DNA from: Patescibacteria group bacterium
GTDB taxonomy: Bacteria; Patescibacteriota; Gracilibacteria; Absconditabacterales; Absconditicoccaceae
DNA: 64,000 nucleotides
Direction of reading: 5' to 3'
Assembly (NCBI GenBank): GCA_022705745.1
Contig: JAKJDW010000004.1
Span: 3,614 to 67,613 of the forward strand
Positions 3,281 to 60,545 of the stretch are shown here, one piece after another. Made by a program: the position numbers and the translations under genes. Each line of letters starts with the position of its first letter. The stretch's first letter is position 1. The notes beneath the pieces were generated by a model that was not told where the DNA came from, made no database searches, and saw nothing but the letters and a program-made list of their open reading frames with translations.

Positions 3281-3316
3281 ACAATATTTTATAAACTAAA
3301 TAGCCAAGGTCTAATT

Positions 3317-3391: not shown

Positions 3392-3411
3392 CCACAAAGT
3401 TTTATTAAATT

Positions 3412-3500
3412 TATCCCCAGGTGGATCCCGCAATGTGCGGGACTAGCCCGAACCACCAACTTATCCCGCTGTATAGCGGGATTGCTCTATCCAATCTATC
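3412..3500 (-). pseudogene. Decayed copy of tRNA-Arg(TCT) carrying two GC-rich hairpin modules
   Basis: Aligns to the intact tRNA-Arg at 3528-3601 (shared ttatccccaggtgga...cgaaccaccaactta...ttgctctatcc). TCCCGCAATGTGCGGGA (3426-3442) sits in the T-arm, TCCCGCTGTATAGCGGGA (3464-3481) replaces the anticodon arm, and the 5' acceptor is lost. Confidence 0.6.
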
Positions 3501-3527
3501 TTTCTTCAACTTGTTGGTATGTTATTT

Positions 3528-3601
3528 TATCCCCAGGTGGACTCGAACCACCAACTTACAGCTTAGAAGGCTGTTGCTCTATCCGATTGAACTATGGGGA
3601 C
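3528..3601 (-). tRNA. tRNA-Arg (anticodon TCT)
   Basis: RC GTCCCCATAGTTCAATCGGATAGAGCAACAGCCTTCTAAGCTGTAAGTTGGTGGTTCGAGTCCACCTGGGGATA. Anticodon stem ACAGC/GCTGT, loop CTTCTAA. G1-U72 wobble. Confidence 0.85.
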
Positions 3602-3630
3602 TTGAGACATACCTGGTAAATAATTTAATT

Positions 3631-3705
3631 TGGACCCTATCGGAGTCGAACCGATTACCTCCTGCGTACAATCCCGCAATTCTGCGGGACTAGCCAAGTG
3701 AGAAT
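3631..3705 (-). pseudogene. Decayed copy of tRNA-Ala(TGC) with a GC-rich hairpin replacing part of the anticodon and D arms
   Basis: The first 47 nt match the intact tRNA-Ala at 3979-4053 with one mismatch (tggaccctatcggagtcgaaccgattacctcctgcgt[a/g]caa). TCCCGCAATTCTGCGGGA (3672-3689) then substitutes for aacaggcgctcta, and the 5' acceptor is degenerate. Confidence 0.6.
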
Positions 3706-3978
3706 TTAACACTTAACAAATCACTCGTAATTCATTATCCTATCAATGTGTCACGATTTTTTCAAATTAGACTCAATTTTCAAAGCTATTTTTTTATTTT
3801 CACATTCCAAATATCAAACCAGCTTTAAATCATTTCACATTCTTTTTGTAGAATAAACTTTTCAGTCCAAATGTTGTTGGTATCTTATTTTTACATTCCC
3901 CGTAATTCATAAATAGAATCTCGTTCCCTTTAATAAATACACATAGAACATAAAATAAAGATTGTTTTGATTTAAATT

Positions 3979-4053
3979 TGGACCCTATCGGAGTCGAACC
4001 GATTACCTCCTGCGTGCAAAACAGGCGCTCTAAGCCAGGTGAGCTAAGGGCCC
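3979..4053 (-). tRNA. tRNA-Ala (anticodon TGC) with the G3:U70 identity pair
   Basis: RC GGGCCCTTAGCTCACCTGGCTTAGAGCGCCTGTTTTGCACGCAGGAGGTAATCGGTTCGACTCCGATAGGGTCCA. Loop TTTGCAC. G3 pairs with T70. Confidence 0.9.
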
Positions 4054-4097
4054 ATATAAGTTTGGACACAACTTCTACAACAATTTGTTTTACTATT

Positions 4098-4190
4098 AAC
4101 CGACTACCTCCTGCGTGCAATCCCGCAATTCTGCGGGACTAGCCAGGTGTGACTTTAGGAATCCCGATCTATCGGGAAGCTAAAGGGCCC
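4098..4190 (-). pseudogene. 5'-part copy of tRNA-Ala(TGC) interrupted by two hairpin modules
   Basis: aaccgactacctcctgcgtgcaa + TCCCGCAATTCTGCGGGA (4121-4138) + ctagccaggtg + tgactttaggaa + TCCCGATCTATCGGGA (4162-4177) + agctaaagggccc. The downstream flank catataagttt is also duplicated from the intact gene. The T-arm and 3' acceptor are missing. Confidence 0.55.
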
Positions 4191-4199
4191 ATATAAGTT

Positions 4200-4282
4200 T
4201 GGGGAGAGTGTGATTTGAACACACGTAGCCGTGAGGCGTCAGATTTACAGTCTGATGCAATTGACCGCTCTGCCATCTCCCC
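4200..4282 (-). tRNA. tRNA-Tyr (anticodon GTA), long variable arm
   Basis: RC GGGGAGATGGCAGAGCGGTCAATTGCATCAGACTGTAAATCTGACGCCTCACGGCTACGTGTGTTCAAATCACACTCTCCCCA. Anticodon stem TCAGA/TCTGA, loop CTGTAAA. Confidence 0.9.
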
Positions 4283-4497
4283 TTTTTATACTTTATATAG
4301 TGAATACATTCTACCATTTCCCCCCAATAATATTAGCCGTGAGGCGCCCCGATACATCGGGGTGCAATTGACCGCTCTGCCATCTCCCCTTTTTATACTT
4401 TATATAGTGAATACATTCTACCATTTCCCCCAATAATATTAGCCGTGAAACGCCCTGATACATCGGGGTGCAATTGACAGCTCTGCCAATAAATAAT
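4283..4497 (-). repeat. Two tandem ~107-bp units, each a 52-bp upstream spacer plus a tRNA-Tyr 5' half whose anticodon stem-loop is replaced by a CCCCGATACATCGGGG hairpin
   Basis: Unit 1 is 4283-4389 and unit 2 is 4390-4497 (more decayed). agccgtgaggcg[CCCCGATACATCGGGG]tgcaattgaccgctctgccatctcccc compares with the real gene agccgtgaggcg[TCAGATTTACAGTCTGA]tgcaattgacc.... A third, weaker copy lies near 4527-4575. Confidence 0.7.
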
Positions 4498-4863
4498 TTT
4501 CTACTATTCTCTTCAAAATAAAATTAACTATGAGGTGTCCAGGTGGATCAGGGGACTATTGACCACTTCTTCGTATATTTTAAAACAACAAATACAGCAT
4601 AATATTGTTGCTTATAAGTATGACAATTATGTATATGAAAATAAAAAGCAAAATCAAGTGTTTTTATATTATTTTATCATTTTTTCGACAGAATGGTTGT
4701 TTTTAATCTCGCTTTGGTTCTATATGCTTGTTTAAAAATGAGAAAAAAAGATGGACTTTCCTAGCTTTACAAGCAAAAGAAAAAGTGAGGCGAGGTTTTT
4801 ATTTGGATTTGATTGATAAAAAAAGTTACTTTAAAATTATTTTATGATATCAAAGTAGCATAA

Positions 4864-6009: not shown

Positions 6010-6083
6010 AGCGGGTAACGGGACTCGAACCCGTACGAACAGAGCTGAAGTCTGCTATGCTACACCAACTACATCATACCCGC
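6010..6083 (-). tRNA. tRNA-Gly with anticodon UCA, the decoder of reassigned UGA codons
   Basis: RC GCGGGTATGATGTAGTTGGTGTAGCATAGCAGACTTCAGCTCTGTTCGTACGGGTTCGAGTCCCGTTACCCGCT folds as a cloverleaf. Acceptor GCGGGTA/TACCCGC, D stem ATGT/GCAT, anticodon stem GCAGA/TCTGT, loop CT-TCA-GC, T arm ACGGG/CCCGT. G1:C72, C2:G71, G3:C70 and U73 are the bacterial Gly identity set. Confidence 0.85.
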
Positions 6084-9160: not shown

Positions 9161-9164
9161 GTGA

Positions 9165-9535
9165 GTAGAAAGTTACGGCAAGTTTGTAAAGTTACAAATT
9201 ATTAATCTTTATAAACTTTACGACAAAAAAGTTCTTCCCTTGCGAAGCGAAGCGGAGTCCCGATGTATCGGGAGAGGGAAGTTGCTCTATCGTAGTTGGG
9301 GGTTGTTGGGGTAAAACCCCCACCTACCCGCCCGTAGCCCCGCAATACTGCGGGGCGGGGCGGGGGAGAACAACCTCCCCAAGGGGAGGAATTTTATCTC
9401 CAAACTTTACTAATCTGTTTGTCCACAGAATTGCAGGACTATACAATATTAGAATTTTTTTCTTTCCTACCACTCGCTCCGTAGGACTACGGGACGGGTG
9501 GTAGGGGATGCAACTTTTAAACTTAATAAACAACT
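9165..9535. repeat. Composite cluster R1: AT-rich word repeats followed by nested GC-rich palindromic modules
   Basis: gtttgtaaagttacaa...ataaactttac, then cttcccttgcgaagcgaagcggag[TCCCGATGTATCGGGA]gagggaag, ctctatcGTAGttggggg[ttgttggg]gtaaaacccccacc, cccGTAGccccgcaatactgcggggcggggcggggg, cctccccaaggggagg, ctaccactcgctccgtaggactacgggacgggtggtag. Confidence 0.9.
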
Positions 9536-9538
9536 GGG

Positions 9539-10477: not shown

Positions 10478-10483
10478 AATAAG

Positions 10484-10835
10484 GATGAATACGAACTTCG
10501 TTCGTGATAAGATGATGAAACTTGCCCCGCTTAGCGGAGTGAATGTTAAAGTGATAAAATGATAAAGTGATAAAATGTTAAAATGATAAAATGATAAAGT
10601 GATAAAATGATAAAGTGATAAAATGTTAAAATGATAAAGTGATAAAATGTTAAAATGATAAAATGATAAAGTGATAAAATGTTAAAATGATAAAATGATA
10701 AAGTGATAAAATGTTAAAGTGATAAAACTTGCCCCGCTAAGCGGGGTGAATGTTGAAATGCTAAATGCTTGTCCCGCTTAGCGGGGTGAATGATGAGGTG
10801 ATAAATGCCTGTCAATAAGCAGGGTTCCTTGTTTT
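10484..10835. repeat. Composite cluster R2: three CTTGCCCCGCTTAGCGGGGTGAATG-type hairpins bracketing an 8-nt microsatellite
   Basis: aaacttgccccgcttagcggagtgaatg (about 10518-10545), aaacttgccccgctaagcggggtgaatg (about 10724-10751), atgcttgtcccgcttagcggggtgaatg (about 10766-10793), and gcctgtcaataagcagggt. Confidence 0.9.
10541..10728. repeat. 8-nt tandem repeat (TGATAAAA / TGATAAAG / TGTTAAAA), about 23 units
   Basis: Direct reading: gaatgttaaagtgataaaatgataaagtgataaaatgttaaaatgataaaatgataaagtg... uninterrupted for about 188 nt between two copies of the same GC hairpin. Confidence 0.95.
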
Positions 10836-10846
10836 AAGAAGATGCT

Positions 10847-11803: not shown

Positions 11804-11837
11804 TCAATATTGGTTTTGTATATGATAAGTTGTTTTC

Positions 11838-12875: not shown

Positions 12876-13137
12876 TTCTTTTTTTTTAAAATTAAATAAA
12901 AAAAATTTTTGATAAGATCAATACAACTAAAATAGTTGATATTCTTTTGATACAAAATATCAATTAAATAACACAAAAAAACAACCAATTTAATTTTGGA
13001 ACAACAAACTATATTTACATTTTTTGTTTTTCTATCTTTTGGCACAATAAGAGATTCTAGTAAGTAAGCGAGTTTATCAAAGAATATGTAAATATATACT
13101 ATTTTTTGTTTTTTTTATAAAAAAAGTGCCCAAAAAT

Positions 13138-13165
13138 TTGCAAAATAAAAAAAAACAATTATAAT
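13138..13165 (+). promoter_or_regulatory. Sigma-70-like promoter TTGCAA-16-TATAAT upstream of the surface-protein gene, lying outside the left inverted repeat
   Basis: TTGCAA at 13138-13143 and TATAAT at 13160-13165, with a 16-nt A-rich spacer. The same hexamer pair occurs at the putative sRNA promoters 16404 and 17116. Confidence 0.5.
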
Positions 13166-13211
13166 TGTATTGGCGAAAATAGATGAAGACGGTCTTTAAT
13201 AGTCAAATATT

Positions 13212-13235
13212 CTATGTTATATTATGTGGCCTAGG
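13212..13235. repeat. Left arm of a 24-bp inverted repeat bracketing gene 13265-13822
   Basis: ctatgttatattatgtggcctagg. The reverse complement of 13885-13908 is ctatattatattatgtggcctagg. 23/24 identical, with a 19-nt perfect core ttatattatgtggcctagg. Confidence 0.9.
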
Positions 13236-13264
13236 GCATATTTTATATTGTTACAAATAAAAAA

Positions 13265-13822
13265 ATGAAAAAAATATACAAATTATGAGCCCTTATAGTG
13301 GCTCTTTTTGCACTTGGTTTTATAACATTAAGTGTTCAAGATGCTCAAGCTGCTGATAAAGAGGTTAGCTTAAGTATTACAGCAGGAAGTAATACTTGTA
13401 CTTTTGGTAATTATAATCCAATGACATCTCCAGCTTCTTATACTACTGGAGTTGTGGTGTCTAATCAACCAAGTTACGAATGTATTTTACTAGCAGGTCA
13501 ACAAGATTGATGACAAGCTAATACAGTAACTGTTCAATCAACTAATCTAACAGGTTCTTGGACTGGAGCAACACATCGTATTCCTGCTGCAAATGTAAAA
13601 CTTAAGCATGTTAACGCTCCAATAGTTAGGTCATGAGCTTGCCAAATAACTACTTACTTATCAACTGGATATACAAATGTTGCAAGTACACAGACTTTGA
13701 TAAAAAAAGATGAGCTTACAATATGTACTATTGGCTCTTCAACTCAAATACAAATTACAATTCCTGCAAGCTTACCAGTAGGAACTTATAGTGGATATAT
13801 GATATTTACAGAGCCTGCTTAA
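13265..13822 (+). CDS. Small secreted beta-rich surface protein (185 aa; WxL/SCPU-like C-terminus, tentative)
   Basis: MKKIYKLGALIVALFALGFITLSVQDAQAADKEVSLSITAGSNTCTFGNYNP...QQDGGQANTVTVQSTNLTGSWTGATHRIPAANVKLK...IQITIPASLPVGTYSGYMIFTEPA. Signal peptide with an AQA cleavage site. Confidence 0.75.
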
Positions 13823-13884
13823 TTTAATAAAAAAACAAACAAAAGTCTAGGTTAATAAAAATCTAATAGTTTAGATTATTTTAT

Positions 13885-13908
13885 CCTAGGCCACATAATA
13901 TAATATAG
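13885..13908. repeat. Right arm of the 24-bp inverted repeat bracketing gene 13265-13822
   Basis: cctaggccacataatataatatag, the reverse complement of the left arm with one mismatch. Confidence 0.9.
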
Positions 13909-14029
13909 CCAATCTAAATTATGGCATCGTTCGTTATTTGAAAATATAAAACTCTATGTGTATGCCATTTCTTGTTCTTTATATATCCCAAACTTAGACT
14001 TTTTACATAAAAACATTTGCTTTTTGAGA

Positions 14030-14735: not shown

Positions 14736-15115
14736 GGTGCTGTTCTTGCAACCCCGCTTGTGGAAATTTTTAAGCTACAGGTAGGAGAAACAGCAAATTG
14801 TCTCCCTTTATCAAAGGGAGCTGGTCTCCCCCGCTGAATAGCGGGGGTAGAGGGATTTATATACAGCTTGTCATTTCGACTAAGTGAACGAAGTGAACAC
14901 ACGGAGACAAAGAAATCCTTCCCTCGGGGGAAGCTGTTCTAATGTAGTTGGGGGTAAAACCCCCACCTAGCTACACAAACAACCTCCCCCAAGGGAGGAA
15001 CTTTTGTCACAACAAACTGTCTCCCTTCATAGAAGGTAGCTGCTCTCCCCGCCCCGCTTAAACAGCGGGGCAGAATTGCGGGGATAGAGGGATTTAACAT
15101 CCTCCCATTTCTTGC
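14736..15115. repeat. Composite cluster R3 of GC-rich palindromic modules
   Basis: ttgtctccctttatcaaagggagctggtct, cccccgctgaatagcggggGTAGagggatttatataca, gtcatttcgactaagtgaacgaagtgaac, cttccctcgggggaagctgttctaatGTAGttgggggtaaaacccccacctagctac, cctcccccaagggagg, ctgtctcccttcatagaaggtagctgctct, ccccgcttaaacagcgggg, cagaattgcgggg. Confidence 0.95.
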
Positions 15116-15173
15116 AATATAAATAAATCTATAGACTTATAAAAAACAAAAAAATCTCCCCAAAGGAAGACTC

Positions 15174-15392
15174 TTATAGGCTATTTCGTTCATCTACTGA
15201 AATTCAGATATATTCAATTATACAATTTACAACTCATCTTGAAATATCTTTTCATCAATGATTTGGGAATGGAACTCTATATCCATCTTTCATCATAAAC
15301 ATATGTTTTCATCACACATAAGGTCATTCAAATCAAAGTTTTCTTAATTTCTTCACCAATTCTCTAGCATTAATAGGTGTAACTTTAGGCAT
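15174..15392 (-). CDS. hicA: Type II toxin HicA (mRNA interferase)
   Basis: MPKVTPINARELVKKLRKLGFEGPYVGGKHMFMMKDGYRVPFPNHGGKDISRGVVNCIIEYIGISVDERNSL matches the HicA pattern (..el.k.L...GF......GSH..f...g..v.vP.H.gkdi..G.l..il...gi). The ATG overlaps the hicB stop (TATGCCTAA). Confidence 0.85.
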
Positions 15393-15624
15393 AACCAAAC
15401 TCTTTATTCATAGTAAAATCCTTTTTTAAGTCTATTTTCCCATTTTTAATATCATCTATCATCAATGTTTCTATTAAATTGATCATATTTCATCTTGCAT
15501 CCTCAAAACTATCTCATTGAGTAAAATATCATGGTTTATTTGGGATTTTTGCAATAACCACTCAATCTTCATCTTTGTAATATACTGTTTGGTCTAATAA
15601 GGAATGAATATAATTTGTGAACAT
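15385..15624 (-). CDS. hicB: Type II antitoxin HicB (UPF0150-like)
   Basis: MFTNYIHSLLDQTVYYKDEDGVVIAKIPNKPGYFTQGDSFEDARGNMINLIETLMIDDIKNGKIDLKKDFTMNKEFGYA. HicB-like block y.a.iP..pG..tQGdt.eEA..n. It lies directly upstream of and overlaps hicA. Confidence 0.8.
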
Positions 15625-15721
15625 TTTCCCATTAGTTACTGGATAAAACTAATCCAATTATAAACATAAAAGCTATTTTTTCAAGCTGAAAATAAATCTT
15701 TGAATCAATGAACAAATTTCA

Positions 15722-16345
15722 GTTGTATTTGTCATTTCGACTAAGTGAACGAAGTGAACGCACGGAGACAAAGAAATCCTTCCCTCGGGGGAAGTTGCTC
15801 TAGTGTAGTTGGGGGTAAAACCCCCACCTAGCTACGCAAACAACCTCCCCCAAGGGAGGAACTTTTGTCACAACAAACTGTCTCCCTTCATAGAAGGTAG
15901 CTGCTCTCCCCCGCTGAATAGCGGGGGTAGAGGGATTTATATACAACTGTCATTTCGACTAAGTGAACGCACAGAGAAATCTCTTTACAAAAAATGTCTC
16001 CCTTTATCAAAGGGAGTTGTTCTAATGCTGCGCCCCGCAGAATTGCGGGGGTAGAGGGATTTATATACAACTGTCATTTCGACTAAGTGAACGAAGTGAA
16101 CGCACGGAGAAATCTCTTTACAAAAAATGTCTCCCTTTATCAAAGGGAGTTGTTCTAATGTAGAGGGATTTATATACAGCTTGTCATTTCGACTAAGTGA
16201 ACGCACGGAAAAATCCACTTTTAACAAACTGTCTCCCTTTCGCGAAACAAAGTGGAGTCCTCTCCCGATATATCGGGATCTCACTTTGTTCGAGATCTAT
16301 CGGGACAAAGGGAGGTGACAATTTTCCCCCACCCTTTTTCCTTTT
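15722..16345. repeat. Composite cluster R4 of GC-rich palindromic modules, including about 125-bp tandem units and a three-level nested hairpin
   Basis: Starts with a 181-bp copy of the R3 segment (15731-15912). Then come repeated units GTAGagggatttatatacaactgtcatttcgactaagtgaacg(aagtgaacg)cacggagaaatctctttacaaaaaatgtctccctttatcaaagggagttgttctaatg. The nested element is at 16229-16316. Confidence 0.95.
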
Positions 16346-16403
16346 CCCACATACCACCAAAATAATACTTTTCAACAGATGGCAGAAAGATCTCCATTTT
16401 TAT

Positions 16404-16431
16404 TTGCAATTTAATTTTTTTTAGTTATAAT
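16404..16431 (+). promoter_or_regulatory. Promoter TTGCAA-16-TATAAT of candidate sRNA copy A
   Basis: TTGCAA at 16404-16409 and TATAAT at 16426-16431, inside a 42-nt block (atctccatttttatttgcaatttaattttttttagttataat) identical to 17103-17143. Confidence 0.55.
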
Positions 16432-16508: not shown

Positions 16509-17003
16509 TTAATGAGAAATGTAATGTTTAATATTTATTAAATAATCAAAGTTTTCGTTCATCAAATCATTATATAGTGAAGATGCATATTTTTTGTTTG
16601 GGAATAATATTTTTAGAAATCTTTGTTTTTTGATTAAAAAATCTATGAGTATTTTGAAATCTCAATCTCACGAAACTATTAATATTTTATCAAATTTATC
16701 CGCCTCATCCAATAACTTTGCCATAACATGAAAAATTAAATCACTATCTATATTTCATTTTTTATTGGTCTCCATAAGTAATTGCTGTTTTTTGAAAACC
16801 ACAATAAATCATGCCTCTTGTAATTTAGTATACAATCGATTATTTTCATCTTGCATATAACCTATAAAATAATATGCCTTTTTTATTTTATATTTATCAA
16901 AAAGATAGATTCTCAATTTACTAAAATCTACTGACCATCACTCAGACCTTGTTCATAAATGTAAATTTTGACCATCAATATAAGCGATATTATTCTCTTT
17001 CAT
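16509..17003 (-). CDS. NYN-domain (LabA/DUF88-like, PIN-fold) predicted RNase, paralog A
   Basis: 164 aa: MKENNIAYIDGQNLHLGTRSEGWSVDFSKLRIYLFDKYKIKKAYYFIGYMQDENNRLYTKLQEAGFIVVFKKQ...KKGNIDSDLIFHVMAKLLDEADKFDKILIVSGDGDFKILIDFLIKKQRF. NYN hallmarks IDGQN, KGNID.D, SGDGDF. Confidence 0.85.
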
Positions 17004-17115
17004 CTTTCAAATAAAATATCAAATAAATGTTTCTTTATCTCTACACAAACTCCCAATCCAACGCCCAAACTTCCTGACCGCACCTCACCGACAATACTTT
17101 TATCTCCATTTTTAT

Positions 17116-17143
17116 TTGCAATTTAATTTTTTTTAGTTATAAT
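17116..17143 (+). promoter_or_regulatory. Promoter TTGCAA-16-TATAAT of candidate sRNA copy B
   Basis: TTGCAA at 17116-17121 and TATAAT at 17138-17143, identical to copy A. Confidence 0.55.
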
Positions 17144-17149
17144 GATATT

Positions 17150-17207
17150 GTTATCACGACGAAAGAGATTCCAAAAAGTGTTGGTGCTTTAGGACATCTC
17201 TTTTTTT
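17150..17207 (+). ncRNA. Candidate about 60-nt small RNA (copy B), antisense to the last codons and stop of NYN gene B
   Basis: agagattccaaaaag-TGTTGGTG-ctttaggacatctct followed by T7. The outer stem AGAGAT/ATCTCT replaces GAGAAGG/CCTTCT of copy A. The NYN-B stop codon (17189-17191) lies in the 3' arm. Confidence 0.45.
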
Positions 17208-17710
17208 GTTTGTTTAAAATACTCAATTTTTTTACGAATATCAAATAAACTTAAATTGATACCGTACTGGGGTTTAATGCTTTTATATAAAGATGAATAT
17301 TTATTGTTGGGGAATAAAATATTCTTAAAAATATTCTTTTGAATAAGATATTTTACCATCTTTATGTAATCTCAATCTCATGATACTAATACAATTTTAT
17401 CAAATTTTTTATTTTCAATAATTGTTTTCATGGTCTCAAAAACAATGTCTGTATCGACATTTCACTTTTTCTTTCCTTCTAAAGACTGTGAATGCTCTCT
17501 AAAATATACTATAAATCAAGCTTTTTGCAAACTTTCGTATAAAGTTTGACACTCTTCATTTACATATCATAAAAAATAATATGCCGTTTCTACACAAAAT
17601 TTATCTTTTAAGTATTGCCTAAATCTTTTGTAGTCCATATTCCATCATGCACTTTGTAATCATAAATGTAAATTTTGACCATCAATATAAGCGATATTAT
17701 TCTCTTTCAT
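17189..17710 (-). CDS. NYN-domain predicted RNase, paralog B
   Basis: 173 aa: MKENNIAYIDGQNLHLGLQSAGWNMDYKRFRQYLKDKFCVETAYYFLGYVNEECQTLYESLQKAGFIVYFREH...KKGNVDTDIVFETMKTIIENKKFDKIVLVSGDGDYIKMVKYLIQKNIF.... The first 17 codons and the 5' leader (76 nt) are identical to paralog A. Confidence 0.85.
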
Positions 17711-17742
17711 CTTTCAAATAAAATATCAAATAAATACTTCTT

Positions 17743-18114
17743 TTACTTTATAAATCTAAAATACTCCATCTTTTTATTTCAAAAATTTATAAGCAATCAA
17801 ATTTTAACCTTATATACTTCCAAATAATTTATTAATTGCGCTTTATTTACATCTTCTATTTTTGTGGTTGCCTTTAATTCAACCATAATATCTTCGTCTA
17901 CCAAAAAATCTACCCTTCTATTTCATACATGTGTCCCATCATAATGAATTTGCATATTTTTTTCTCTCTCAAAAGTTAATCCAGCCTTTTGAAACTCTAA
18001 CAATAAGGCCCTTTGATAAACAACTTCTGGGAATCAACATCACAGCTCATTGTGTACCTTCATCGCACAACCTATTATTTTATATGTAATATCTCATTTG
18101 TAAAAATCATTCAT
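17743..18114 (-). CDS. GxxExxY protein (PD-(D/E)xK nuclease superfamily)
   Basis: 123 aa: MNDFYKGDITYKIIGCAMKVHNELGCGFPEVVYQRALLLEFQKAGLTFEREKNMQIHYDGTHVGNRRVDFLVDEDIMVELKATTKIEDVNKAQLINYLEVYKVKIGLLINFGNKKMEYFRFIK. GxxExxY here reads G-F-P-E-V-V-Y. Confidence 0.85.
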
Positions 18115-18204: not shown

Positions 18205-18332
18205 CCACATCCACACCATCTACACCATCTGTGCTCATCTGTGTCATCTGTGCTCATCTGTGTCATCTGTGGTCATCTGTGGTCATCTGTGGTCATCTGT
18301 GGTCATCTGTGGTCATCTGTGGTTATCTGTGG
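18205..18332. repeat. 9-10-nt tandem repeat (CATCTGTGGT and variants), about 12 units
   Basis: ccatctacaccatctgtgctcatctgtgtcatctgtgctcatctgtgtcatctgtggtcatctgtggtcatctgtggtcatctgtggtcatctgtggttatctgtggttatctgg. Confidence 0.95.
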
Positions 18333-18336
18333 TTAT

Positions 18337-18402
18337 CTGGTGGTTTAAAAAAAAACCCCTCTCCTGCTCCCAATCCCGCGAGAACGGGAAAGAGAAAGGA
18401 AA
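18337..18402 (-). terminator. Terminator of the S-layer-like gene, built from a GC hairpin with a nested TCCCGCGAGAACGGGA module
   Basis: Minus strand reads aaaaaaCCCCTttcctttctctt[tcccgttctcgcggga]ttgggagcaggagAGGGGttttttttt. It lies about 60 nt downstream of the stop at 18461. Confidence 0.6.
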
Positions 18403-21394: not shown

Positions 21395-21885
21395 AAACAT
21401 CATCTCAAACTCACCAAACCTAGCCCCCCTTAGCAAGGGGGGTAGGGGGGATCCGTCCACAACCAACTGTCTCCCTTTTTCAAAGGGAGCTGCTCTATTG
21501 TAGTAGTGGGATTTCTCCCCGCATAGCCCCCTTCGAACGAAGTGAAGCCCCGATTTATCGGGGAGCAAGGGGGGTAGGGGGGATCCGTCCACAACCAACT
21601 GTCTCCCTTTTTCAAAGGGAGCTGCTCTATTGTAGTGGGATTTCTCCCCACCTAGCCCCCTTCGAACGAAGTGAAGCCCCGATTTATCGGGGAGCAAGGG
21701 GGGAAGGGGGGATCCGTCCACAACCAACTGTCTCCCTTTTTCAAAGGGAGCTGCTCTATTGTAGTGGGATTTCTCCCCTTTTTCAAATTAACCATCTCCC
21801 TCATTAAATGAGAACTAGCTAAAGAAATCCTTCCCTTGGGGGAAGTTGTTCTATCGTAGTTGGGGGTAAGTATCCCCGGTTTCAA
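21395..21885. repeat. Composite cluster R6: about three tandem copies of a ~130-bp unit of GC-rich modules plus extra modules, just upstream of the S-layer-like gene
   Basis: Unit starts at 21433, 21565 and 21694 (periods 132 and 129 nt): gcaaggggggtaggggggatccgtccacaaccaactgtctccctttttcaaagggagctgctctattGTAGtgggatttctcccc.cctagcccccttcgaacgaagtgaagccccgatttatcgggga. Ends with cttcccttgggggaagttgttctatcGTAGttgggggtaag. Confidence 0.95.
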
Positions 21886-22509
21886 GCAAATTTGAAAAAC
21901 AAGTTTGAAGTAACATTTTGTATAACATGTGCTGTCTATACTCCTATAGACTAGCTACGAAACCTACACAAAATATATCTCCATATATTTAATGTAATGT
22001 TAAGGATCTACACGGTGTAAATAAACTAATTTGTAGGATGTGTTGGACTATCAAAACACAAATAGCGATAAAGATCAAATCTCTTTTTCCCCGTAGGTTT
22101 AGGAAAGGTGAAACCGACCAATACCTGTTATCTAAATATGTCTATGTAGACCAACAAATAACCGATCTACTCATCGTATCTCCATACGATAAGACCGATA
22201 AGGAAGTGGTAGCTTTTTCAACGAAGATTGCAAGACAAATGTAGACAGATTTTTACAAACAAAAAAGAGATACAAGATATCTTTCTTTGCATAAACCTGT
22301 GAACAAATGTGCTATAGACCTACGCTAGAAAAGCTTTGCCCTTCTGTATGGCTATACGAATCAGATGACAAATCGTGACAGCTTTGGGACTAGTGTTACA
22401 GTAAAAAAAAGAAAAAAATTAGCTTTAATATCAATCAAGGACTGTGTTTTGGAAATGGGAATCGTATTGTCCATTTTCGCTTGCCTTTTCATCGTTTTGG
22501 TATGTGATT

Positions 22510-22680
22510 ACCCTACCACCCGCAAGTCCCGGGGTCAATTTTCACACTCGGGTGGTGCTGAGTAGAGGGGATCTGGCCACAAGGGGGAAAAACAGCCCCC
22601 CTTAACAAGGGGGGGTAGGGGGGATTTCAGCCACAAGTGGAAGAGACTAGCGACTATTGACTATCGACTAACGACTAATG
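22510..22680. repeat. Composite cluster R7 (3' side of comEC)
   Basis: ccctaccacccgcaagtcccggggtcaattttcacactcgggtggtg, GTAGaggggatctggccacaagggggaaaaacagccccccttaacaagggggggtaggggggatttcagccacaag, then a short CGACTA-periodic tract (gactagcgactattgactatcgactaacgactaatg). Confidence 0.9.
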
Positions 22681-22681
22681 T

Positions 22682-24541
22682 CTATCTCCTCATCCTTACT
22701 AATACTAACCAAACAATAAACAATCCTAACAAAACATACTTAATCCAACTTCCTTCTGCATGCAAATAAACCCCAAATTTCTGTGCTAATTCGGACATGA
22801 AATAGATGTAATTCAACAACAACTTTTCTGGCCAAAGTCGAATTCCCCATGGAAGTGCTTGGAACAAAACCGTACTAATAAACCCATAAATCATCACTAC
22901 CGCAACAATCGGAACTACAAGAAAGTTCGCAATAATTCATGTCAAATTTGTCGTTCCCATAAAAAACAACATCACAGGCAAAACTCCAATCGTAGCTCCA
23001 ACCGTAGGAGTAACAAACTCTTTGAGAAATTTCTGAAATCATGTTTTGAATAAATTTTTTTTCTTTTTGGAAGTAATGGTGGTTTGTTTTTCGTTATTAG
23101 CTCACGGTTTATTGAAATAACTTACACAATTTTCTATCAATTTTCAAAAATAAATTATTCCTATAATAGCTGAAAAACTAAGCAAAAACCCGACATCATA
23201 AGCCAAAAAATACGGATTTATGATCAACATGACAATGAATGCAATAGACATCGCCCTCCAAATATTGATCTCTTTTCACCAAAAAAGTGCCAACATTCCT
23301 AGTCATCACATCACTGTTGCTCTAAAAACCGAGCTGTCTAGTCAACAAATCATGGAATACAAAATAATTGTCAGCAAAATTACCGCATTTCTCACATAAA
23401 AAGGCAGAAAAAATAAAATCGCTCACAAAAAAACTACTATCATAATAATATTTCATCAGCTAACCGCGATAATGTGGACAAGTCACGATTTCACGAATCA
23501 TTGATAATCGTCTGGCGGAATCTGCGATCTATCTCAAACCAACATTCACAAAACCAATCCAGCTTGTTTATTTTCTCCGTAGGCAGATACTACCATCTTT
23601 TGCAAGCCCTTCCTAATTTTCTGAATAAAAGAAATCTTGCTTTTGCAATTCTGCTCTGAAAGAGAATGTAAGTTCTCATCATTACCTTTTCCAGAAAAAT
23701 TGTCTCCCTTTATCAAAGGGAGCTGCTCTCCCCGCACCGCCCCGCAGTATTGCGGGGCTACAGGAGGGTAGAGAGATTTTTTTAATCCTTTAGTCCCCGA
23801 AAGACTGTGGAGCGGAGCTAAAAAAGGAGGATAAATTTGAGCCACAAGCGAGACATTCTTCCCTTGGGGGAAGTTGTGTGCGAAGCTAGATGGGGGTAAG
23901 AAATCTTCTGTTTCAAAAACATCATCAGCAAAATTATGATATTCACATTCATCCTTGAAAACTAAATAACTTTGCCCATATATCGTACCATAAAACCCTT
24001 TCATCATCAGCCATTTGGAGTAATTGAACTCATAATCAAATAGTCATGACAAGCTCGGTTTGCTGACAAAATCATTCCATTGCTTTTGAAAATCAAAAAT
24101 ATTTCCCGCTCCCGTATAAGCTAGATCCACCCTTCAATTTAGCCACAAAATATCTCAAATTTCAAATTTTCTTGAAGAAATTAAAAAATATTCGCGCCCA
24201 GCATTGTCTTGGAAAATGTATTTTTGATAAGAATAAATATCGGAAACAATACCCGTTCCTACAAAATATTTTCAAACAGGTCAGTCCATATCACGCGAAA
24301 TTCTTCATTCTAAATTGGGCAAAGATTTGATATCCTGATCGTACTTATAATTTTTGACAAAAATAGACAGAATAGAAATTAGAAATGCTAATGTAATTAA
24401 CAAGGATGTACGAGCAGTATTTTTGAATTTTTTAACAATAGAATGTCAAAGTAATAATAGAATCAACAGCAACAATGCTAAAAAAACATTCTCAAAAACC
24501 GTTAAAACAAATACAAATATCGCAAATGATATTATGAACAT
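22682..24541 (-). CDS. comEC: DNA internalization competence protein ComEC/Rec2 (619 aa) with an in-frame palindromic-element insertion
   Basis: MFIISFAIFVFVLTVFEN...SKWLMMKGFYGTIYGQSYLV... [insert] ...AGLVLGMLVGDRSQIPPDDYQGFVKSGLVHIIAVSGGNIIMIVVFLGAI...AYDVGFLLSFSAIIGIIYF...GATIGVLPVMLFFMGTTNLTGIIANFLVVPIV. ComEC blocks LG.r..i.....F..sG..Hi.AvSG. The 1860-nt frame is continuous. Confidence 0.85.
23699..23905. repeat. Cluster R8: GC-rich palindromic modules inside the comEC reading frame
   Basis: attgtctccctttatcaaagggagctgctct, ccccgcaccgccccgcagtattgcggggCTACagg, agggtagagagattttttta, cttcccttgggggaag. On the coding strand these read ...FPQGKNVSLVAQIYPPFLAPLHSLSGTKGLKKSLYPPVAPQYCGAVRGEQLPLIKGDNFSG... 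with no stop. Confidence 0.9.
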
Positions 24542-24571
24542 GGATTGTATTATTGATTAATTAAATCATCT

Positions 24572-24658
24572 TCTATCCTATCACTCTACCACCCGGGTGC
24601 TGTTTGACCCCGGGATAACTCCCGGGGTCTATTTTGACCCGGGTGGTAGGGTGATCTT
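24572..24658. repeat. Cluster R9: CTACCACCCGGGTG...CCCGGGTGGTAG hairpin with a nested CCCCGGGATAACTCCCGGGG
   Basis: tcactctaccacccgggtgctgtttgaccccgggataactcccggggtctattttgacccgggtggtagggtga. Related half-copies occur at 22513-22556 and 25808-25820. Confidence 0.9.
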
Positions 24659-24660
24659 AC

Positions 24661-25590: not shown

Positions 25591-25682
25591 ATGAATGAAT
25601 TAAGGTTAAAGATTCTAATTCCTTGATAAGGTATATAAACAATGGGGAATATGGATTTGGGCTTCAGGTGGAAGGAATAACA

Positions 25683-25822
25683 AGCTGTCTCCCTTTTGCA
25701 AAGGGGGCTGCTCTAATGTAGAGGGATTTAATATTCTCTCCACTTTTGCAGCCCCAGCCCGTAGCCCCGCAGTATTGCGGGGCGGGGCGGGGCGGGGTCA
25801 AACAGTACCCGGGTGGTAGGGC
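25683..25822. repeat. Composite cluster R10
   Basis: agctgtctcccttttgcaaagggggctgctctaatGTAGagggatttaat, cccGTAGccccgcagtattgcggggcggggcggggcgggg, gtacccgggtggtaggg. Confidence 0.9.
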
Positions 25823-25823
25823 A

Positions 25824-34469: not shown

Positions 34470-34715
34470 GAAAAAGTATTAAGTGGGAAGTCCATCAAGT
34501 AACAAGTTTATAAAGTTACAAGTCGATGACTATTCCTCTTAAAAAAGAGGGCTAAAACTTTATTAAAAAAATTCTTCCCTTGGGGGAAGCTGTTCTGATG
34601 TAGTTGGGGGTATTACCCCCACCTAGTCCCTCATAAATTCGGGACGCCACAACCTCCCCAAGGGGAGGGATTTTATCTTAAGTCTTATGCACTTTGAACT
34701 TTTAACTTTAAGAAC
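34470..34715. repeat. Composite cluster R12 (AT word repeats flanking GC modules)
   Basis: caagtaacaagtttataaagttacaag, cctcttaaaaaagagg, cttcccttgggggaagctgttctgatGTAGttgggggtattacccccacctag, tccctcataaattcggga, cctccccaaggggagg, gcactttgaacttttaactttaagaactt. Confidence 0.9.
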
Positions 34716-38117: not shown

Positions 38118-38215
38118 ATTATTTATGAAATTATTGTTAAATGTGGTTTGTTTATATTTAATTTTTGATTACTTTCAACAGTAAAGATTTGAAGGAGCAA
38201 AGAAAGTAAAACTTA

Positions 38216-38665
38216 TTGCCTCCCTTCAAAGAAGGGAGCTGCTCTAATGCTATGCACCGCTTGCCCCGCTTAAACAGCGGGGCAGAATTGCGGGGCTACA
38301 ATTTATGGGGATTTAGGCCACAAATAGAAAAAACAAAAAATTGTCTCCCTTTTGCGAAACGAAGTGGAGTCCTCTCCCGACACATCGGGATCTCACTTTG
38401 TTCGAGATCTATCGGGACAAAGGGAGCTGTTCTTCCGCATCTCTTGCAGCCCCGCAGAATTGCGGGGCTACAATTTGTTGGAATTTAAGCCATAAGTAGG
38501 AGAAACAGCAAACTGTCTCCCTTTCGCAAAGGGAGCTGTTCTTTTAGAGGGATTTAGTGTATTCCACCACACAGAATTGCTTGACTCAAGAAAGAGAATT
38601 ATCCCTGTTTCTACTAGTCATGTCCTTCGCCCTCCCGTAGTACTACGGGAGGGCTCGAGGACGAC
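38216..38665. repeat. Composite cluster R13, including a second copy of the three-level nested hairpin (38341-38427)
   Basis: ttgcctcccttcaaagaagggagctgctctaatg, ccccgcttaaacagcgggg, cagaattgcggggCTAC, ttgtctcccttttgcgaaacgaagtggagtcctc[tcccgacacatcggga]tctcactttgttcgagatctatcgggacaaagggagctgttct, ccccgcagaattgcggggCTAC, GTAGgagaaacagcaaactgtctccctttcgcaaagggagctgttct, cctcccGTAGtactacgggagg. Confidence 0.95.
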
Positions 38666-38741
38666 AAACACATTTATGAACACTTGAAAAAAATAAATAA
38701 AAAAATAAAATATTTGTTGTATTTTTATATAAACATCAATT

Positions 38742-60075: not shown

Positions 60076-60165
60076 TTTTTATTGTATTTAAATAAAACAG
60101 TTATTTTTTTAGTTAAAAATCTAAAGTTTTCAAGGATATTTTTCATTAGTTTATCAATTTTTTGA

Positions 60166-60545
60166 ATCCCCTTTTTAAGGGGTTACTCTATCGTAGTTGG
60201 GGGTTGTAGTTGGGGATTGTCAGGAATTACTGGGAAGAAAAACCCCCACCTACCCCGCAGTATTGCGGGGGAGAACAACCTCCCCCAAGGGAGGAACTTT
60301 TGTCACAACATTATTGCCTCCCTTTGAAAAAGGGAGTTGGTCTTCCCGATTTATCGGGATAGAGGGATTTATTTACATCCCCCTTGACTACGGAGTTCTC
60401 CGTAACGAGCAAGGGAGATGCTTATTAGCTTTTAATAAATCCCCCTTAATCCCCCTTATTAAGGGGGATGTTTGTTAGCTTTTAATAAACCCCTTAACTA
60501 CGAAATTCTTCGTAGCGAATAAGGGAGAGGTAGGAGACTTTCCTC
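60166..60545. repeat. Composite cluster R15
   Basis: tccccttttTaaggggttactctatcGTAGttggggg[ttgtagttggggattgtcaggaattactgggaagaaaa]acccccacctac, cccgcagtattgcggg, cctcccccaagggagg, ttgcctccctttgaaaaagggagttggtct, tcccgatttatcgggaTAGagggattta, tcccccttattaaggggga, ctacggagttctccgtaac, ctacgaaattcttcgtag. Confidence 0.95.

What the first reader, a model, noticed from the sequence alone, without database searches (positions are those of the whole stretch)
14736..16345. Modular GC-rich palindromic element family (REP/BIME-like, with a conserved GTAG junction) colonising an AT-rich CPR genome
At least 13 clusters in 64 kb are built from the same few 16-30-nt hairpin modules. The clusters are at 9165, 10484, 14736, 15722, 21395, 22510, 23699, 24572, 25683, 34470, 38216 and 60166, plus the tRNA region.
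- TGTCTCCCTTT-N4-AAAGGGAGCTGCTCT.
- GTTGGGGGTAAAACCCCCACCTAG.
- CCTCCCCCAAGGGAGG.
- CTTCCCT(C/T)GGGGGAAG.
- CCCCGC-N6-GCGGGG.
- TCCCGAT-N2-ATCGGGA.
- CTACCACCCGGGTG...CCCGGGTGGTAG.
- A longer GTAGAGGGATTTATATACA...GTCATTTCGACTAAGTGAACG unit.

Modules are joined by a recurring linker CT(G/C)(C/T)TCTA(A/T)(T/C)GTAG. A GTAG (or CTAC) tetranucleotide sits at the foot of many hairpins (for example 9290, 9336, 14944, 15803, 16158, 21858, 25716, 25759, 34600, 60191).

A GTAG tetranucleotide next to an imperfect palindrome is the recognition feature of REP elements mobilised by RAYT (IS200/IS605-type Y1) transposases. The composition contrast resembles the mobile GC clusters of yeast mitochondrial DNA and Rickettsia palindromic elements. 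I know of no described equivalent in Gracilibacteria or Absconditabacteria.
Basis: partly seen in the sequence, partly recalled or inferred. Interest (0 to 1): 0.85.

Follow-up and report, generated by a model that had tools for sequence, protein, structure and literature searches.

The report
GTAG-tagged palindromic repeat arrays (REP-like)
A small, AT-rich Absconditabacteria (SR1) genome that reads TGA as glycine is peppered with arrays of short GC-rich hairpin repeats of the REP/BIME type; they differ between closely related strains, and sister strains carry the matching REP-type transposase, so this is a known kind of selfish DNA in a lineage where I found no earlier description.

Summary
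About 3.3 kb (5%) of the window is arrays of a few GC-rich hairpin modules joined by a conserved linker. GTAG is the most over-represented tetramer in them (33 observed, 9 expected).

All asymmetric modules lie on the + strand, whatever the direction of the neighbouring genes.

The arrays are not artefacts or one structured RNA. The same modules occur in independent ENA, JGI and Logan assemblies. Whole modules are gained, lost or swapped between strains whose flanks are up to 97-100% identical. This happens in intergenic spacers, inside hairpin loops, and in frame inside the ComEC gene.

A strain about 97% identical carries a REP-associated tyrosine transposase (RAYT) where the window has only a palindrome and a roughly 25-nt remnant of that gene. 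No RAYT is in the window.

Best reading: a GTAG-tagged REP/BIME-like family, probably processed by the lineage's RAYT. That link is inferred, not shown.

It is a new member of a known kind. Unusual traits are head-to-tail co-orientation, invasion of hairpin loops, and in-frame insertions.

The parts
14736..15100 (+). Focal array 1, in the order A-E-I/H-D-linker-B-C-A-E-I. All asymmetric modules are on the + strand.
   Evidence: It folds as ssDNA with z = -8.8. The same module order recurs in other metagenome contigs, L044 and L114.
15174..15624 (-). hicA (15174-15392) and a hicB-like antitoxin gene (15385-15624), embedded between the two arrays.
   Evidence: Pfam HicA_toxin 49.1 bits and UPF0150 28.1 bits. 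ORFs were called under genetic code 25.
15722..16345 (+). Focal array 2: H-D-linker-B-C-A-E, then GTAG-bounded I/H-A-linker units of 110-124 nt, ending in an A hairpin whose loop carries a nested F hairpin (16223-16317).
   Evidence: (families D13, D14, D19).
14868..15050 (+). 183-nt direct repeat, 97% identical to 15729-15911. The two copies bracket the hicBA cassette with an 861-nt period.
   Evidence: family D8.
9225..9520 (+). Composite D (with F nested in its loop)-linker-B-E-C, plus a G-type palindrome at 9466-9509. It lies in the LemA|HtpX spacer.
   Evidence: The locus is multi-allelic: relatives L035 and L042 have only a G palindrome, L081 has the composite without the nested F and without the G palindrome, and the window has both.
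10484..10815 (.). Three CCCCGCTNAGCGGGG hairpins around an 8-nt microsatellite (10542-10727). Related to the family but a different structure.
   Evidence: (family D1).
21395..21885 (+). Array with 2.7 tandem copies of a 129-132-nt GTAG-bounded unit (21432-21778), followed by D-linker-B.
   Evidence: (family D5).
22503..22660 (+). G-like palindrome plus CCCCCCTT...AAGGGGGG hairpins, each followed by GTAG, downstream of ComEC.
   Evidence: This region does not align with strain L020.
23694..23900 (+). Modules A, E, an I-like unit and D lying in frame inside the ComEC ORF (22682-24541, - strand), antisense to the gene.
   Evidence: Homologue alignment A1 shows an insertion of roughly 100 aa at a linker that has 0-100 extra residues in relatives. 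Strain L026 has a G palindrome at the same site, between flanks that are 100% identical.
24572..24655 (.). G palindrome CTACCACCCGGGTG..(GACCCCGGGA-N4-TCCCGGGGTC)..CACCCGGGTGGTAG. It occupies the site where sister strains carry the RAYT gene.
24547..24575 (-). Probable remnant of the 3' end of the lost RAYT gene (reads ..DDLINQ*; RAYT ends ..IDFLNFNQ*).
   Evidence: The BLAST homology with L020 resumes 25 nt before the RAYT stop codon. The stretch is short, so confidence is moderate.
25650..25823 (+). Array of A-linker-I-E plus the left half of a G palindrome, between the SNase-domain gene and the pyruvyl-transferase gene.
   Evidence: Strain L020 has a complete G palindrome here instead.
34560..34680 (+). 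D-linker-B-(TCCCTCATAAATTCGGGA)-C composite.
   Evidence: (families D9, D12).
38205..38560 (+). Array of A, E hairpins in a ..TGC-hairpin-ACA.. context (GTAG on the - strand), A with a nested F (38335-38429), A and I.
   Evidence: (families D15, D19). The E hairpin sits in the same context that holds the K palindrome in L114.
60160..60540 (+). Array of linker-B (nested)-E-C-A-F-I plus further CCCCCTT-type hairpins, in a divergent promoter region.
3415..4573 (-). Truncated tandem copies of tRNA-Arg (3415-3495), tRNA-Ala (3630-3700, 4090-4190) and tRNA-Tyr (4318-4573). E/F-type hairpins replace or interrupt their arms.
   Evidence: (families D11, D16). A 22-nt hairpin insertion in the T loop is seen relative to L027.

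Best explanation
The clusters are arrays of a lineage-specific family of GTAG-tagged REP/BIME-like palindromic elements, that is, non-autonomous selfish DNA.

**Anatomy (shown).** The units are short GC-rich hairpins (A, B, C, D, E, F, G) and two longer units (I/H). They are joined by a conserved linker, CTGYTCTAWYGTAG. They travel as composites: D-linker-B-(E)-C, and GTAG|AGGGATTT...A hairpin-linker-GTAG|.

**Dynamics (shown).** Modules are gained, lost and replaced on the time scale of strain divergence. This happens in intergenic spacers, in the loops of other hairpins, in truncated tRNA-like copies, and in frame inside tolerant protein linkers.

**Mechanism (inferred).**
- The hairpins form on single-stranded DNA.
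- The lineage's REP-associated tyrosine (HUH/Y1) transposase cuts and rejoins them next to GTAG.
- That gene sits between the pyruvyl-transferase gene and ComEC in sister strains. In this strain it has been deleted, leaving a palindrome and a short 3' remnant.
- A unit that ends in GTAG would recreate its own target. That would explain the head-to-tail arrays and the GTAG at junctions.
- Action on one replication strand would explain the uniform orientation.
For: **Repeat family far above chance**
-.

**GTAG**
- It is the top over-represented tetramer in the clusters, and on one strand.

**Selection for the hairpin**
- In 28 distinct A copies from several genomes, the closing pair is T-A in 20 and C-G in 8, and never mismatched. 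99.6% of cells are paired.

**Turnover at orthologous loci**
- LemA|HtpX spacer: three alleles, plus a clean insertion of about 32 nt into the loop of D.
- SNase|pyruvyl-transferase spacer: a whole G palindrome in one strain, and half a G plus E-I-linker-A in the other.
- ComEC linker: D..E-A in some strains and a G palindrome in another, between identical flanks, in frame in both.
- T loop of a tRNA-Arg-like copy: a 22-nt insertion.

**The transposase in relatives**
- The 239-aa Y1 protein of L020, L021 and L032 scores 85.5 bits on NF047646 (cut-off 80). It has the HUH motif (HFH) and the WQKSFHDHIIRNE..YIEYN motif. Its best PDB match is 4ER8, TnpA-REP.
- It is single-copy and syntenic in L023, L024 and L025.
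- It is preceded by, and interrupted by, GTAG-tagged K palindromes.

**K behaves as a dispersed REP**
- 98 metagenome stretches carry it. The asymmetric feet are TGT-K-GCA in 25 copies and TGC-K-ACA in 23, out of 103.
- K co-occurs with modules A, B, C, D, I and the linker on code-25 contigs.
- The window's E hairpins sit in the same TGTAG..CTGCA context as K.

**Lineage correlation**
- Lineages with no RAYT at the ComEC locus, or that are module-poor (L022, L027-L030, L129, L130), have 0-0.23 GC-rich hairpins per kb.
- The window and RAYT-bearing lineages have 0.5-2.1 per kb.

**Co-orientation**
- All asymmetric modules in about 8 independent window loci are on the + strand.
- 11 of 16 module-rich metagenome contigs are completely uniform.
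Against: - No RAYT is found in the 64-kb window by tblastn or by profile search. K is absent from it too.
- The RAYT's flanking REP is K, not modules A-D, H or I. No experiment or sequence feature ties those modules to the enzyme beyond GTAG and co-occurrence.
- The nested loop insertions show no GTAG at their borders.
- Units are head-to-tail rather than inverted pairs. Only G looks like a REPIN.
- The ComEC alleles also differ in adjacent non-module sequence. That fits allelic recombination between strains as well as it fits transposition.
- The replication direction across the window is unknown. Local GC skew follows gene direction and there is no DnaA-box cluster. The one cluster right of the skew switch (60160) has the same orientation as the rest. 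If an origin lay at 38-45 kb, that would contradict strand-specific insertion.
Confidence: 0.65

Rival explanations
1. The palindromes turn over without any transposase. The GC-rich hairpins spread and swap by replication slippage or template switching at hairpins, unequal crossing-over within arrays, and gene conversion or homologous recombination between arrays and between strains. This is what has been proposed for mitochondrial GC clusters. On this view the RAYT next door is incidental, or serves only the K repeats.
For: - The window has many modules but no RAYT and no K.
- There are tandem higher-order repeats of 129-132 nt and 861 nt.
- Alleles differ by replacement rather than simple insertion, and adjacent non-module sequence is diverged too.
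- Nested insertions have no GTAG at their borders.
- Synteny breaks coincide with clusters.
Against: - The same approximately 30-nt unit (CGAAGCGAAG..+F hairpin) is found in the loops of three different host hairpins.
- The same composites lie at unrelated loci over 50 kb, all in one orientation.
- GTAG is strongly over-represented on one strand only.
- Hairpin density correlates with RAYT-bearing lineages.
Confidence: 0.2
2. The arrays are primarily functional elements kept by selection rather than selfish mobile DNA. They could act at the RNA level (terminators, mRNA stabilisers, small RNAs) or as protein-binding sites on DNA. This does not exclude the other explanations.
For: - The hairpins are stable (z = -8.8).
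- A compensatory change keeps the A stem paired.
- Most clusters are intergenic, several of them downstream of genes.
- REPs elsewhere have such roles (PMC3733652).
Against: - Orientation is the same whether the flanking genes are on + or -, so in most loci the modules would be antisense or in promoter regions.
- Presence, absence and replacement differ between near-identical strains.
- One array lies antisense inside an ORF.
- No Rfam family matches.
Confidence: 0.1
3. The clusters are an assembly artefact or chimera: GC-rich pieces from another organism joined into an AT-rich contig.
For: Sharp contrast in composition. Contigs of relatives often end at the arrays.
Against: - The same modules sit in the same genomic contexts in independent assemblies from ENA, JGI and Logan samples.
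- One array is in frame within a conserved gene.
Confidence: 0.01

Closest known systems
GTAG-tagged REP sequences and BIME mosaics with their RAYT (TnpA-REP) transposases, in E. coli, Pseudomonas and other phyla (PMC2817692, PMC3733652, PMC3479197)
   Same: - Short GC-rich imperfect palindromes in many copies.
- A GTAG tetranucleotide at the foot.
- Mosaic arrays with conserved linkers.
- Mostly extragenic, with occasional copies inside genes.
- A single-copy, vertically inherited Y1/HUH transposase of the RAYT family in the lineage, with REPs next to it.
   Different: - The host is a code-25 Absconditabacterales (CPR) genome of about 30% GC. No such case turned up in my literature searches.
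- Units are head-to-tail and co-oriented over 50 kb, rather than alternating or in inverted pairs.
- Many distinct hairpin modules are involved, not one or two REP classes.
- Modules nest in the loops of other modules.
- The RAYT is absent from this window, and its own REP (K) lies upstream of and inside its ORF rather than on both sides.
REPINs (pairs of inverted REPs that fold as one long hairpin)
   Same: The G element (CTACCACCCGGGTG...CACCCGGGTGGTAG with an inner hairpin) has this architecture, with GTAG/CTAC at the outer ends.
   Different: Only G fits. The other modules are single hairpins in tandem.
Rickettsia palindromic elements (RPEs)
   Same: Palindromic repeats inserted in frame into protein-coding genes of a reduced genome, adding peptide segments at tolerant sites (ComEC here, and the RAYT itself in relatives).
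   Different: There is no sequence relationship. RPEs are 100-150 nt with no known transposase. Here most copies are intergenic and modular.
IS200/IS605 elements and their palindrome-associated miniature derivatives
   Same: A Y1 HUH enzyme family. Subterminal hairpins rather than terminal inverted repeats. A tetranucleotide at the cleavage or target site. Strand-specific orientation is expected from single-strand transposition. The geometry 'hairpin + about 10 nt + GTAG' at the right end of the I..A unit resembles an IS608 right end.
   Different: No autonomous IS copy or TnpB is seen. Insertion 3' of a fixed target is not demonstrated.
Mobile GC clusters of yeast mitochondrial DNA and double-hairpin elements of fungal mitochondria
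   Same: GC-rich hairpin clusters in very AT-rich DNA, sometimes inside genes.
   Different: An analogy of composition only. The host and sequences are unrelated, and those elements have no RAYT.

Membership tests
REP / BIME (GTAG super-family) | Short (about 20-40 nt) GC-rich imperfect palindromes present in many copies. | tested here: met
   46 GC-rich hairpins in 64 kb. Module A occurs 13 times, E about 10, D 6, and B, C and F 5-6 each. Chance expectation is 0.02-0.07.
REP / BIME (GTAG super-family) | A conserved GTAG tetranucleotide at one end of the palindrome. | tested here: met
   GTAG is the most over-represented tetramer in the clusters (33 observed, 9 expected). It abuts B, E, I and G, and ends the linker. 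It does not abut every module: C and F usually lack it.
REP / BIME (GTAG super-family) | Mosaic clusters in which REPs are joined by a small set of conserved linker motifs. | tested here: met
   The order I/H-D-linker-B-C-A-E recurs in the window and in other genomes.
REP / BIME (GTAG super-family) | Successive REPs in a BIME alternate in orientation. | tested here: not met
   All asymmetric modules are head-to-tail on the + strand. Only E and G occur in both orientations.
REP / BIME (GTAG super-family) | A RAYT gene in the same genome, with REPs of the family next to it. | tested here: inconclusive
   There is none in the 64-kb window, and the rest of the genome is not available. It is present in strains about 97% identical (L020, L021, L032) and in more distant relatives, with K-type GTAG REPs upstream of and inside the gene.
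RAYT (REP-associated tyrosine transposase); applies to the relatives' gene, not to anything in the window | A Y1/HUH fold with the HUH motif and catalytic Tyr helix, and a score above the family model's cut-off. | tested here: met
   NF047646 scores 85.5 bits against a cut-off of 80. Pfam Y1_Tnp scores 40.4 bits. The best PDB match is 4ER8 (TnpA-REP), with HFH and WQKSFHDHIIRNE..YIEYN aligned.
RAYT (REP-associated tyrosine transposase); applies to the relatives' gene, not to anything in the window | Single-copy and vertically inherited at a fixed chromosomal position. | tested here: met
   The order pyruvyl-transferase | RAYT | ComEC is kept in L020, L021, L023, L024 and L025. Genome-wide copy number was not testable.
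REPIN | Two REPs in inverted orientation separated by a short spacer, folding as one long hairpin. | tested here: inconclusive
   This is true for G (24586-24649, 9466-9509, and L020 8027-8091), and not for the other modules.
IS200/IS605-derived miniature elements | Insertion 3' of a fixed tetra- or pentanucleotide target, and orientation tied to the lagging-strand template. | tested here: inconclusive
   GTAG bounds the tandem units and orientation is uniform. However, loop insertions lack GTAG, and the replication direction is unknown.
Rickettsia palindromic elements | Sequence membership in the RPE families. | not tested
   No RPE sequences were compared. The resemblance is functional only: in-frame insertion.
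Known structured RNA families (Rfam) | A match to a curated covariance model. | tested here: not met
   Only six tRNAs reach the gathering threshold. Nothing credible overlaps the clusters at E <= 1.

The most novel reading that the evidence does not exclude
These are not ordinary REPs but a distinct style of Y1-transposase-driven element.
- The hairpin modules carry their own GTAG target at the 3' end.
- They integrate in one replication strand only, which gives strict co-orientation over tens of kilobases.
- They preferentially invade the single-stranded loops of existing hairpins, including tRNA-like arms and other modules.
- They are tolerated in frame inside proteins.
- They are coupled to a RAYT subfamily that keeps its own REP (the exact 24-nt K palindrome) inside its coding sequence, across code-25 and standard-code bacteria.

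If so, the elements would be a built-in marker of replication direction and a driver of protein-linker and synteny variation in Absconditabacteria.
Probability: 0.3. Interest if true: 0.75.

Novelty: new member of a known kind. Interest (0 to 1): 0.55.

Why it matters
CPR bacteria are usually described as streamlined. Here about 5% of a 64-kb stretch is selfish hairpin DNA that differs between near-identical strains. It marks synteny breakpoints, breaks metagenome assemblies, and adds up to about 100 residues to a conserved membrane protein.

This extends the REP-RAYT partnership to Absconditabacteria and to an alternative genetic code.

It also offers natural material for two open questions about REPs: how they are actually disseminated, and whether dissemination is strand-specific. 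The material is the multi-allelic loci and the strains with and without the RAYT.

In practice, the arrays are strain markers and a warning for gene callers, because spurious ORFs and inflated proteins arise where modules sit.

Tried and rejected
**Flawed scans**
- Their results (19 mostly unrelated hits, and 0 hits) say nothing about where the family occurs. I do not use them as evidence of absence.
- Only L009, a code-25 MAG labelled Peribacteria, showed an A-like + GC hairpin + GAGGGATTT arrangement.

**Searches that found nothing**
- The viral-contig scan with the correct A pattern gave 0 hits.
- Rfam at gathering and at E <= 1 gave nothing on the clusters.
- The DnaA-box scan showed no cluster, so no origin could be placed and the replication-strand idea could not be tested.
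- RAYT in the window was searched by tblastn and by a profile of 12 RAYTs against six-frame code-25 ORFs. No hit.
- Literature searches for REP/RAYT in CPR, Gracilibacteria or Absconditabacteria found no paper combining the terms.

- Direct translation references fail because the tools use table 11. I translated under genetic code 25 in Python instead.

**Ideas considered and dropped**
- CRISPR array: there is no constant repeat-and-spacer structure.
- Integron attC sites around the hicBA cassette: there is no integrase and no R''/R' cores, and the arrays mostly lack cassettes.
- One large structured RNA: the region is polymorphic, not conserved, and in most loci antisense to the flanking genes.
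- An inversion between the ComEC and patatin clusters: the gene orientations do not fit a simple inversion.
Full report
**Host and setting**

The window is about 30% GC. Long ORFs appear only if TGA is read as a sense codon. Examples are 26 TGA codons in a GuaB-like gene, 73 in a 1443-aa protein, and GGGTGGHVFP in MurG. There is a tRNA with anticodon UCA at 6010-6083. The closest homologues of ComEC and GuaB are named Absconditabacterales/SR1 by their sources.

Yes.

- The linker CTGYTCTAWYGTAG has 9 copies, against 0.07 expected.
- Modules B, C, D, E, F, G, H and I are all found where stated.
- The clusters add up to 3257 nt, about 5% of the window. They are GC islands of 48-61% GC.
- GTAG is the single most over-represented tetramer in them: 33 observed, against 9.0 or 15.0 expected under first- or second-order models. 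Its complement CTAC is 14.
- The array 14795-15100 folds as single-stranded DNA far better than shuffles (z = -8.8).

**Anatomy**

The modules are not independent beads. Two composites recur.

1. [AAAGAAATC]-D hairpin-CTGTTCTAATGTAG-B hairpin-CCTAG..-(E)-C hairpin. It is seen at 9225, 14909, 15770, 21821 (partial), 34565 and 60168 (families D7, D9, D12).
2. A unit bounded by GTAG on both sides: GTAG|AGGGATTT..variable core (H, or F plus a CCCCCCTT hairpin)..AAC-A hairpin-CTGYTCTAAT-GTAG|. It is 110-132 nt long and tandem at 21432-21778 (2.7 copies, 97% matches) and at 15927-16163.

The order I/H-D-linker-B-C-A-E seen in the focal region recurs almost unchanged in other code-25 metagenome contigs, L044 and L114. 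This is a BIME-like mosaic.

The focal region 14736-16345 is two such arrays around a hicA/hicB-like cassette on the - strand (Pfam). A 183-nt direct repeat, 97% identical, lies on either side of the cassette (family D8).

Modules also nest. An approximately 30-nt unit (CGAAGCGAAG.. + F hairpin) lies in the loop of D (9235-9275), of a CCCCCCTT hairpin (21527-21573 and 21656-21702), and of A (16223-16317, which matches 38335-38429).

Every asymmetric module (A, B, C, D, H, I, linker) in every cluster from 9 kb to 60 kb is on the + strand. Yet the flanking genes are variously on +/+, -/-, convergent or divergent. With about 8 independent loci this is unlikely by chance (about 0.01).

The same holds in other contigs. 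Of 16 module-rich metagenome contigs, 11 are completely uniform, for example 0+/10-, 10+/0-, 7+/0- and 0+/7-. Only the near-symmetric E and G occur both ways. So orientation does not follow transcription.

**Not one RNA, not an artefact**

Rfam gives only the six tRNAs at gathering threshold, and nothing credible on the clusters at E <= 1. The same modules, in the same genomic contexts, appear in independent assemblies from ENA, JGI and Logan samples.

**Turnover between relatives**

- *LemA|HtpX spacer (window 9160-9540).* Between conserved flanks, L035 and L042 carry only a G palindrome (about 80 nt). L081 carries the D-B-E-C composite, without G and without the nested F. The window carries the composite, the nested F in D's loop, the linker, and a G-type palindrome.
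- *SNase|pyruvyl-transferase spacer.* L020 has a whole G palindrome. The window keeps G's left arm, followed by E, I, linker and A.
- *Inside ComEC (22682-24541, - strand).* An array (23694-23900) is read through in frame.
  - Homologues have 0 to about 100 extra residues at this linker.
  - The window and L020 share D..E-A. L026 has a G palindrome there instead. The flanks are 100% identical over about 85 and 110 nt, and the insert is in frame in both.
  - H-like, C-like and G-like modules also sit inside ComEC in L023 and L025.
- *tRNA-Arg-like copy.* A truncated copy (3415-3495, - strand) has a 22-nt hairpin inserted in its T loop relative to L027. Neighbouring truncated tRNA-Ala and tRNA-Tyr copies carry E/F hairpins in place of arms.
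- *Lineage differences.*
  - Lineages at about 85% nucleotide identity (L027-L030), and also L022, L129 and L130, have almost none of these hairpins: 0-0.23 per kb.
  - The window has 0.72 per kb and other module-bearing lineages 0.5-2.1 per kb.
  - Several synteny breaks relative to relatives fall at clusters.

**Selection for the hairpin**

In 28 distinct A copies from several genomes, the closing base pair is T-A in 20 and C-G in 8, and never mismatched. 99.6% of cells are paired. Only this one pair varies, so the evidence is limited but clean. It does not say whether the hairpin matters in DNA or in RNA.

**The transposase**

In L020 and L021 (ENA) and L032 (JGI), the flanks are about 97% identical to the window. 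There, the spacer between the pyruvyl-transferase gene and ComEC holds a 239-aa Y1 gene.

- It scores 85.5 bits on NCBIfam NF047646, 'REP-associated tyrosine transposase' (equivalog cut-off 80), and only 20 bits on the IS200 model.
- Its best solved relative is E. coli TnpA-REP (4ER8), with HUH (HFH) and the WQKSFHDHIIRNE..YIEYN helix aligned.
- The same gene order (pyruvyl-transferase | RAYT | ComEC) is found in more distant relatives L023, L024 and L025. The gene is therefore ancestral at this site.
- In the window the site (24541-24661) holds only the G palindrome. Homology with L020 resumes about 25 nt before the RAYT stop codon (..DDLINQ* against ..IDFLNFNQ*). So the RAYT was deleted in this strain's line. 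L026 looks the same.
- No RAYT is detectable anywhere in the window.

**The RAYT's own repeat (K)**

In the relatives the RAYT is preceded and interrupted by a further module, K: (C)TGTAGGCGCGAATTCGAATTCGCGCCTGCA. It has GTAG at one foot.

- K is absent from the window.
- K is a dispersed repeat elsewhere. The exact 24-mer occurs in 98 metagenome stretches. The asymmetric feet are TGT-K-GCA in 25 copies and TGC-K-ACA in 23, out of 103.
- On code-25 contigs K co-occurs with A, B, C, D, I and the linker, mostly in the opposite orientation to them.
- In L114, K sits in the context ..CTTGC-K-ACAATTT... In the window that same context holds an E hairpin (38448-38472). On the other strand the window reads TGTAG-CCCCGC..GCGGGG-CTGCA. 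E is thus the window's K-like, GTAG-tagged REP.

**How it most likely works**

*Shown:* this is a repeat family of GTAG-tagged hairpins in mosaic arrays. Its modules turn over quickly and are under selection to stay paired. It lives in a lineage that carries a syntenic RAYT.

*Inferred:*
- The RAYT processes the hairpins as single-stranded DNA next to GTAG.
- Units that end in GTAG recreate a target, which gives head-to-tail arrays.
- Action on one replication strand gives the co-orientation.
- Loops are favoured because they are single-stranded.

*Weak points:*
- There is no RAYT or K in the window.
- There is no GTAG at the borders of the loop insertions.
- Some alleles look like recombinational replacement.
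- The replication direction is unknown. GC skew follows gene direction and there is no DnaA-box cluster.

I put 0.65 on the REP/BIME-RAYT explanation, 0.2 on transposase-independent palindrome turnover, and 0.1 on a primarily functional (RNA- or DNA-binding) role, which is not exclusive of the others. An artefact is excluded.

**Comparison with what is known**

GTAG-tagged REPs have been catalogued in more than 80 species of 8 phyla. That catalogue includes tandem head-tail dimers, clusters, and copies inside genes (PMC3733652). RAYTs and their REP association are well described (PMC2817692, PMC3479197). My searches found no paper linking REP/RAYT with CPR, Gracilibacteria or Absconditabacteria.

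This is therefore a new member of a known kind. Its unusual traits are the many modules, strict co-orientation, nesting in loops, and in-frame copies, including inside the RAYT itself. The likeness to Rickettsia palindromic elements (in-frame insertion) and to mitochondrial GC clusters (composition) is analogy, not membership.

**Caveat on my own searches**

Two collection scans used the wrong spacing for module A and are uninformative. The range of the family is known only from the protein-anchored loci and the K-anchored loci.

Noticed in passing
L090 5335-5907, L110 1993-2520, L127 6612-7187, L086/L050, L020 9273-9992 (relatives, not the window): The exact 24-nt palindrome AGGCGCGAATTCGAATTCGCGCCT lies inside the RAYT ORF, between the HUH half and the Tyr helix, in several divergent RAYTs (32-60% identical to the L020 protein). 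It is read as ..EGANSNSRL.. in some and as CRREFEFAPA in L020. It occurs on both code-25 and standard-code contigs. This looks like DNA-level conservation of a REP inside its own transposase gene.
   Followed up: partly
window 3290-4600 (- strand): Next to the real tRNA-Arg, tRNA-Ala and tRNA-Tyr genes lie truncated tandem copies: 3415-3495, 3630-3700, 4090-4190, 4318-4390, 4424-4488, 4509-4573. Their anticodon, D or T arms are replaced or interrupted by E/F-type hairpins. The tRNA-Arg-like and tRNA-Tyr-like copies with an F hairpin are also present in the otherwise module-poor relative L027.
   Followed up: partly
window 9165-9230, 33379-33444, 34495-34530, 39536-39670: Short tandem AAGTT-rich repeats (periods 16, 23 and 46). 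At the LemA|HtpX spacer they belong to the composite that is present in the window and L081 and absent in L035 and L042. Their function is unknown.
   Followed up: partly
window 10542-10727: An 8-nt microsatellite (AATGATAA / AGTGATAA / AATGTTAA, about 23 units) bracketed by CCCCGCTNAGCGGGG hairpins.
   Followed up: no
window 15174-15624 and 16509-18114: A hicA/hicB-like pair sits between the two focal arrays. Just beyond it are two NYN-domain paralogues (16509-17003, 17189-17710) with repeated flanks (16580-16697 matching 17290-17407; 16953-17043 matching 17660-17750) and a PD-(D/E)XK_3 gene (17743-18114). Together they form a small island of toxin- or nuclease-type genes beside the arrays.
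   Followed up: partly
window 18226-18344: A 10-nt tandem repeat, (CATCTGTGGT) x 12. It is followed by a terminator-like hairpin at 18351-18395.
   Followed up: no
window 21885-22500: About 620 nt between two arrays with ordinary composition. Under genetic code 25 the longest ORF is 68 aa (22038-22244), with no Pfam hit, and there is no Rfam hit. It could be a degraded gene or an unknown RNA.
   Followed up: partly
window 9160, 10459-14004, 22660 and 38560, compared with L027/L028, L035/L081 and L023/L025: Breaks of gene order relative to relatives coincide with the arrays. After LemA the order differs from L027 and L028. HtpX is directly followed by the 14091 gene (inverted) in L035 and L081. 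ComEC is followed by patatin in L023, L025 and L130, whereas in the window patatin is 14 kb away, beside another array.
   Followed up: partly
window 38468-38899 (-) and 16127-16414 (+): ORFs of 143 and 95 codons that run through the arrays are almost certainly spurious. Gene callers will produce such false proteins wherever modules sit.
   Followed up: no
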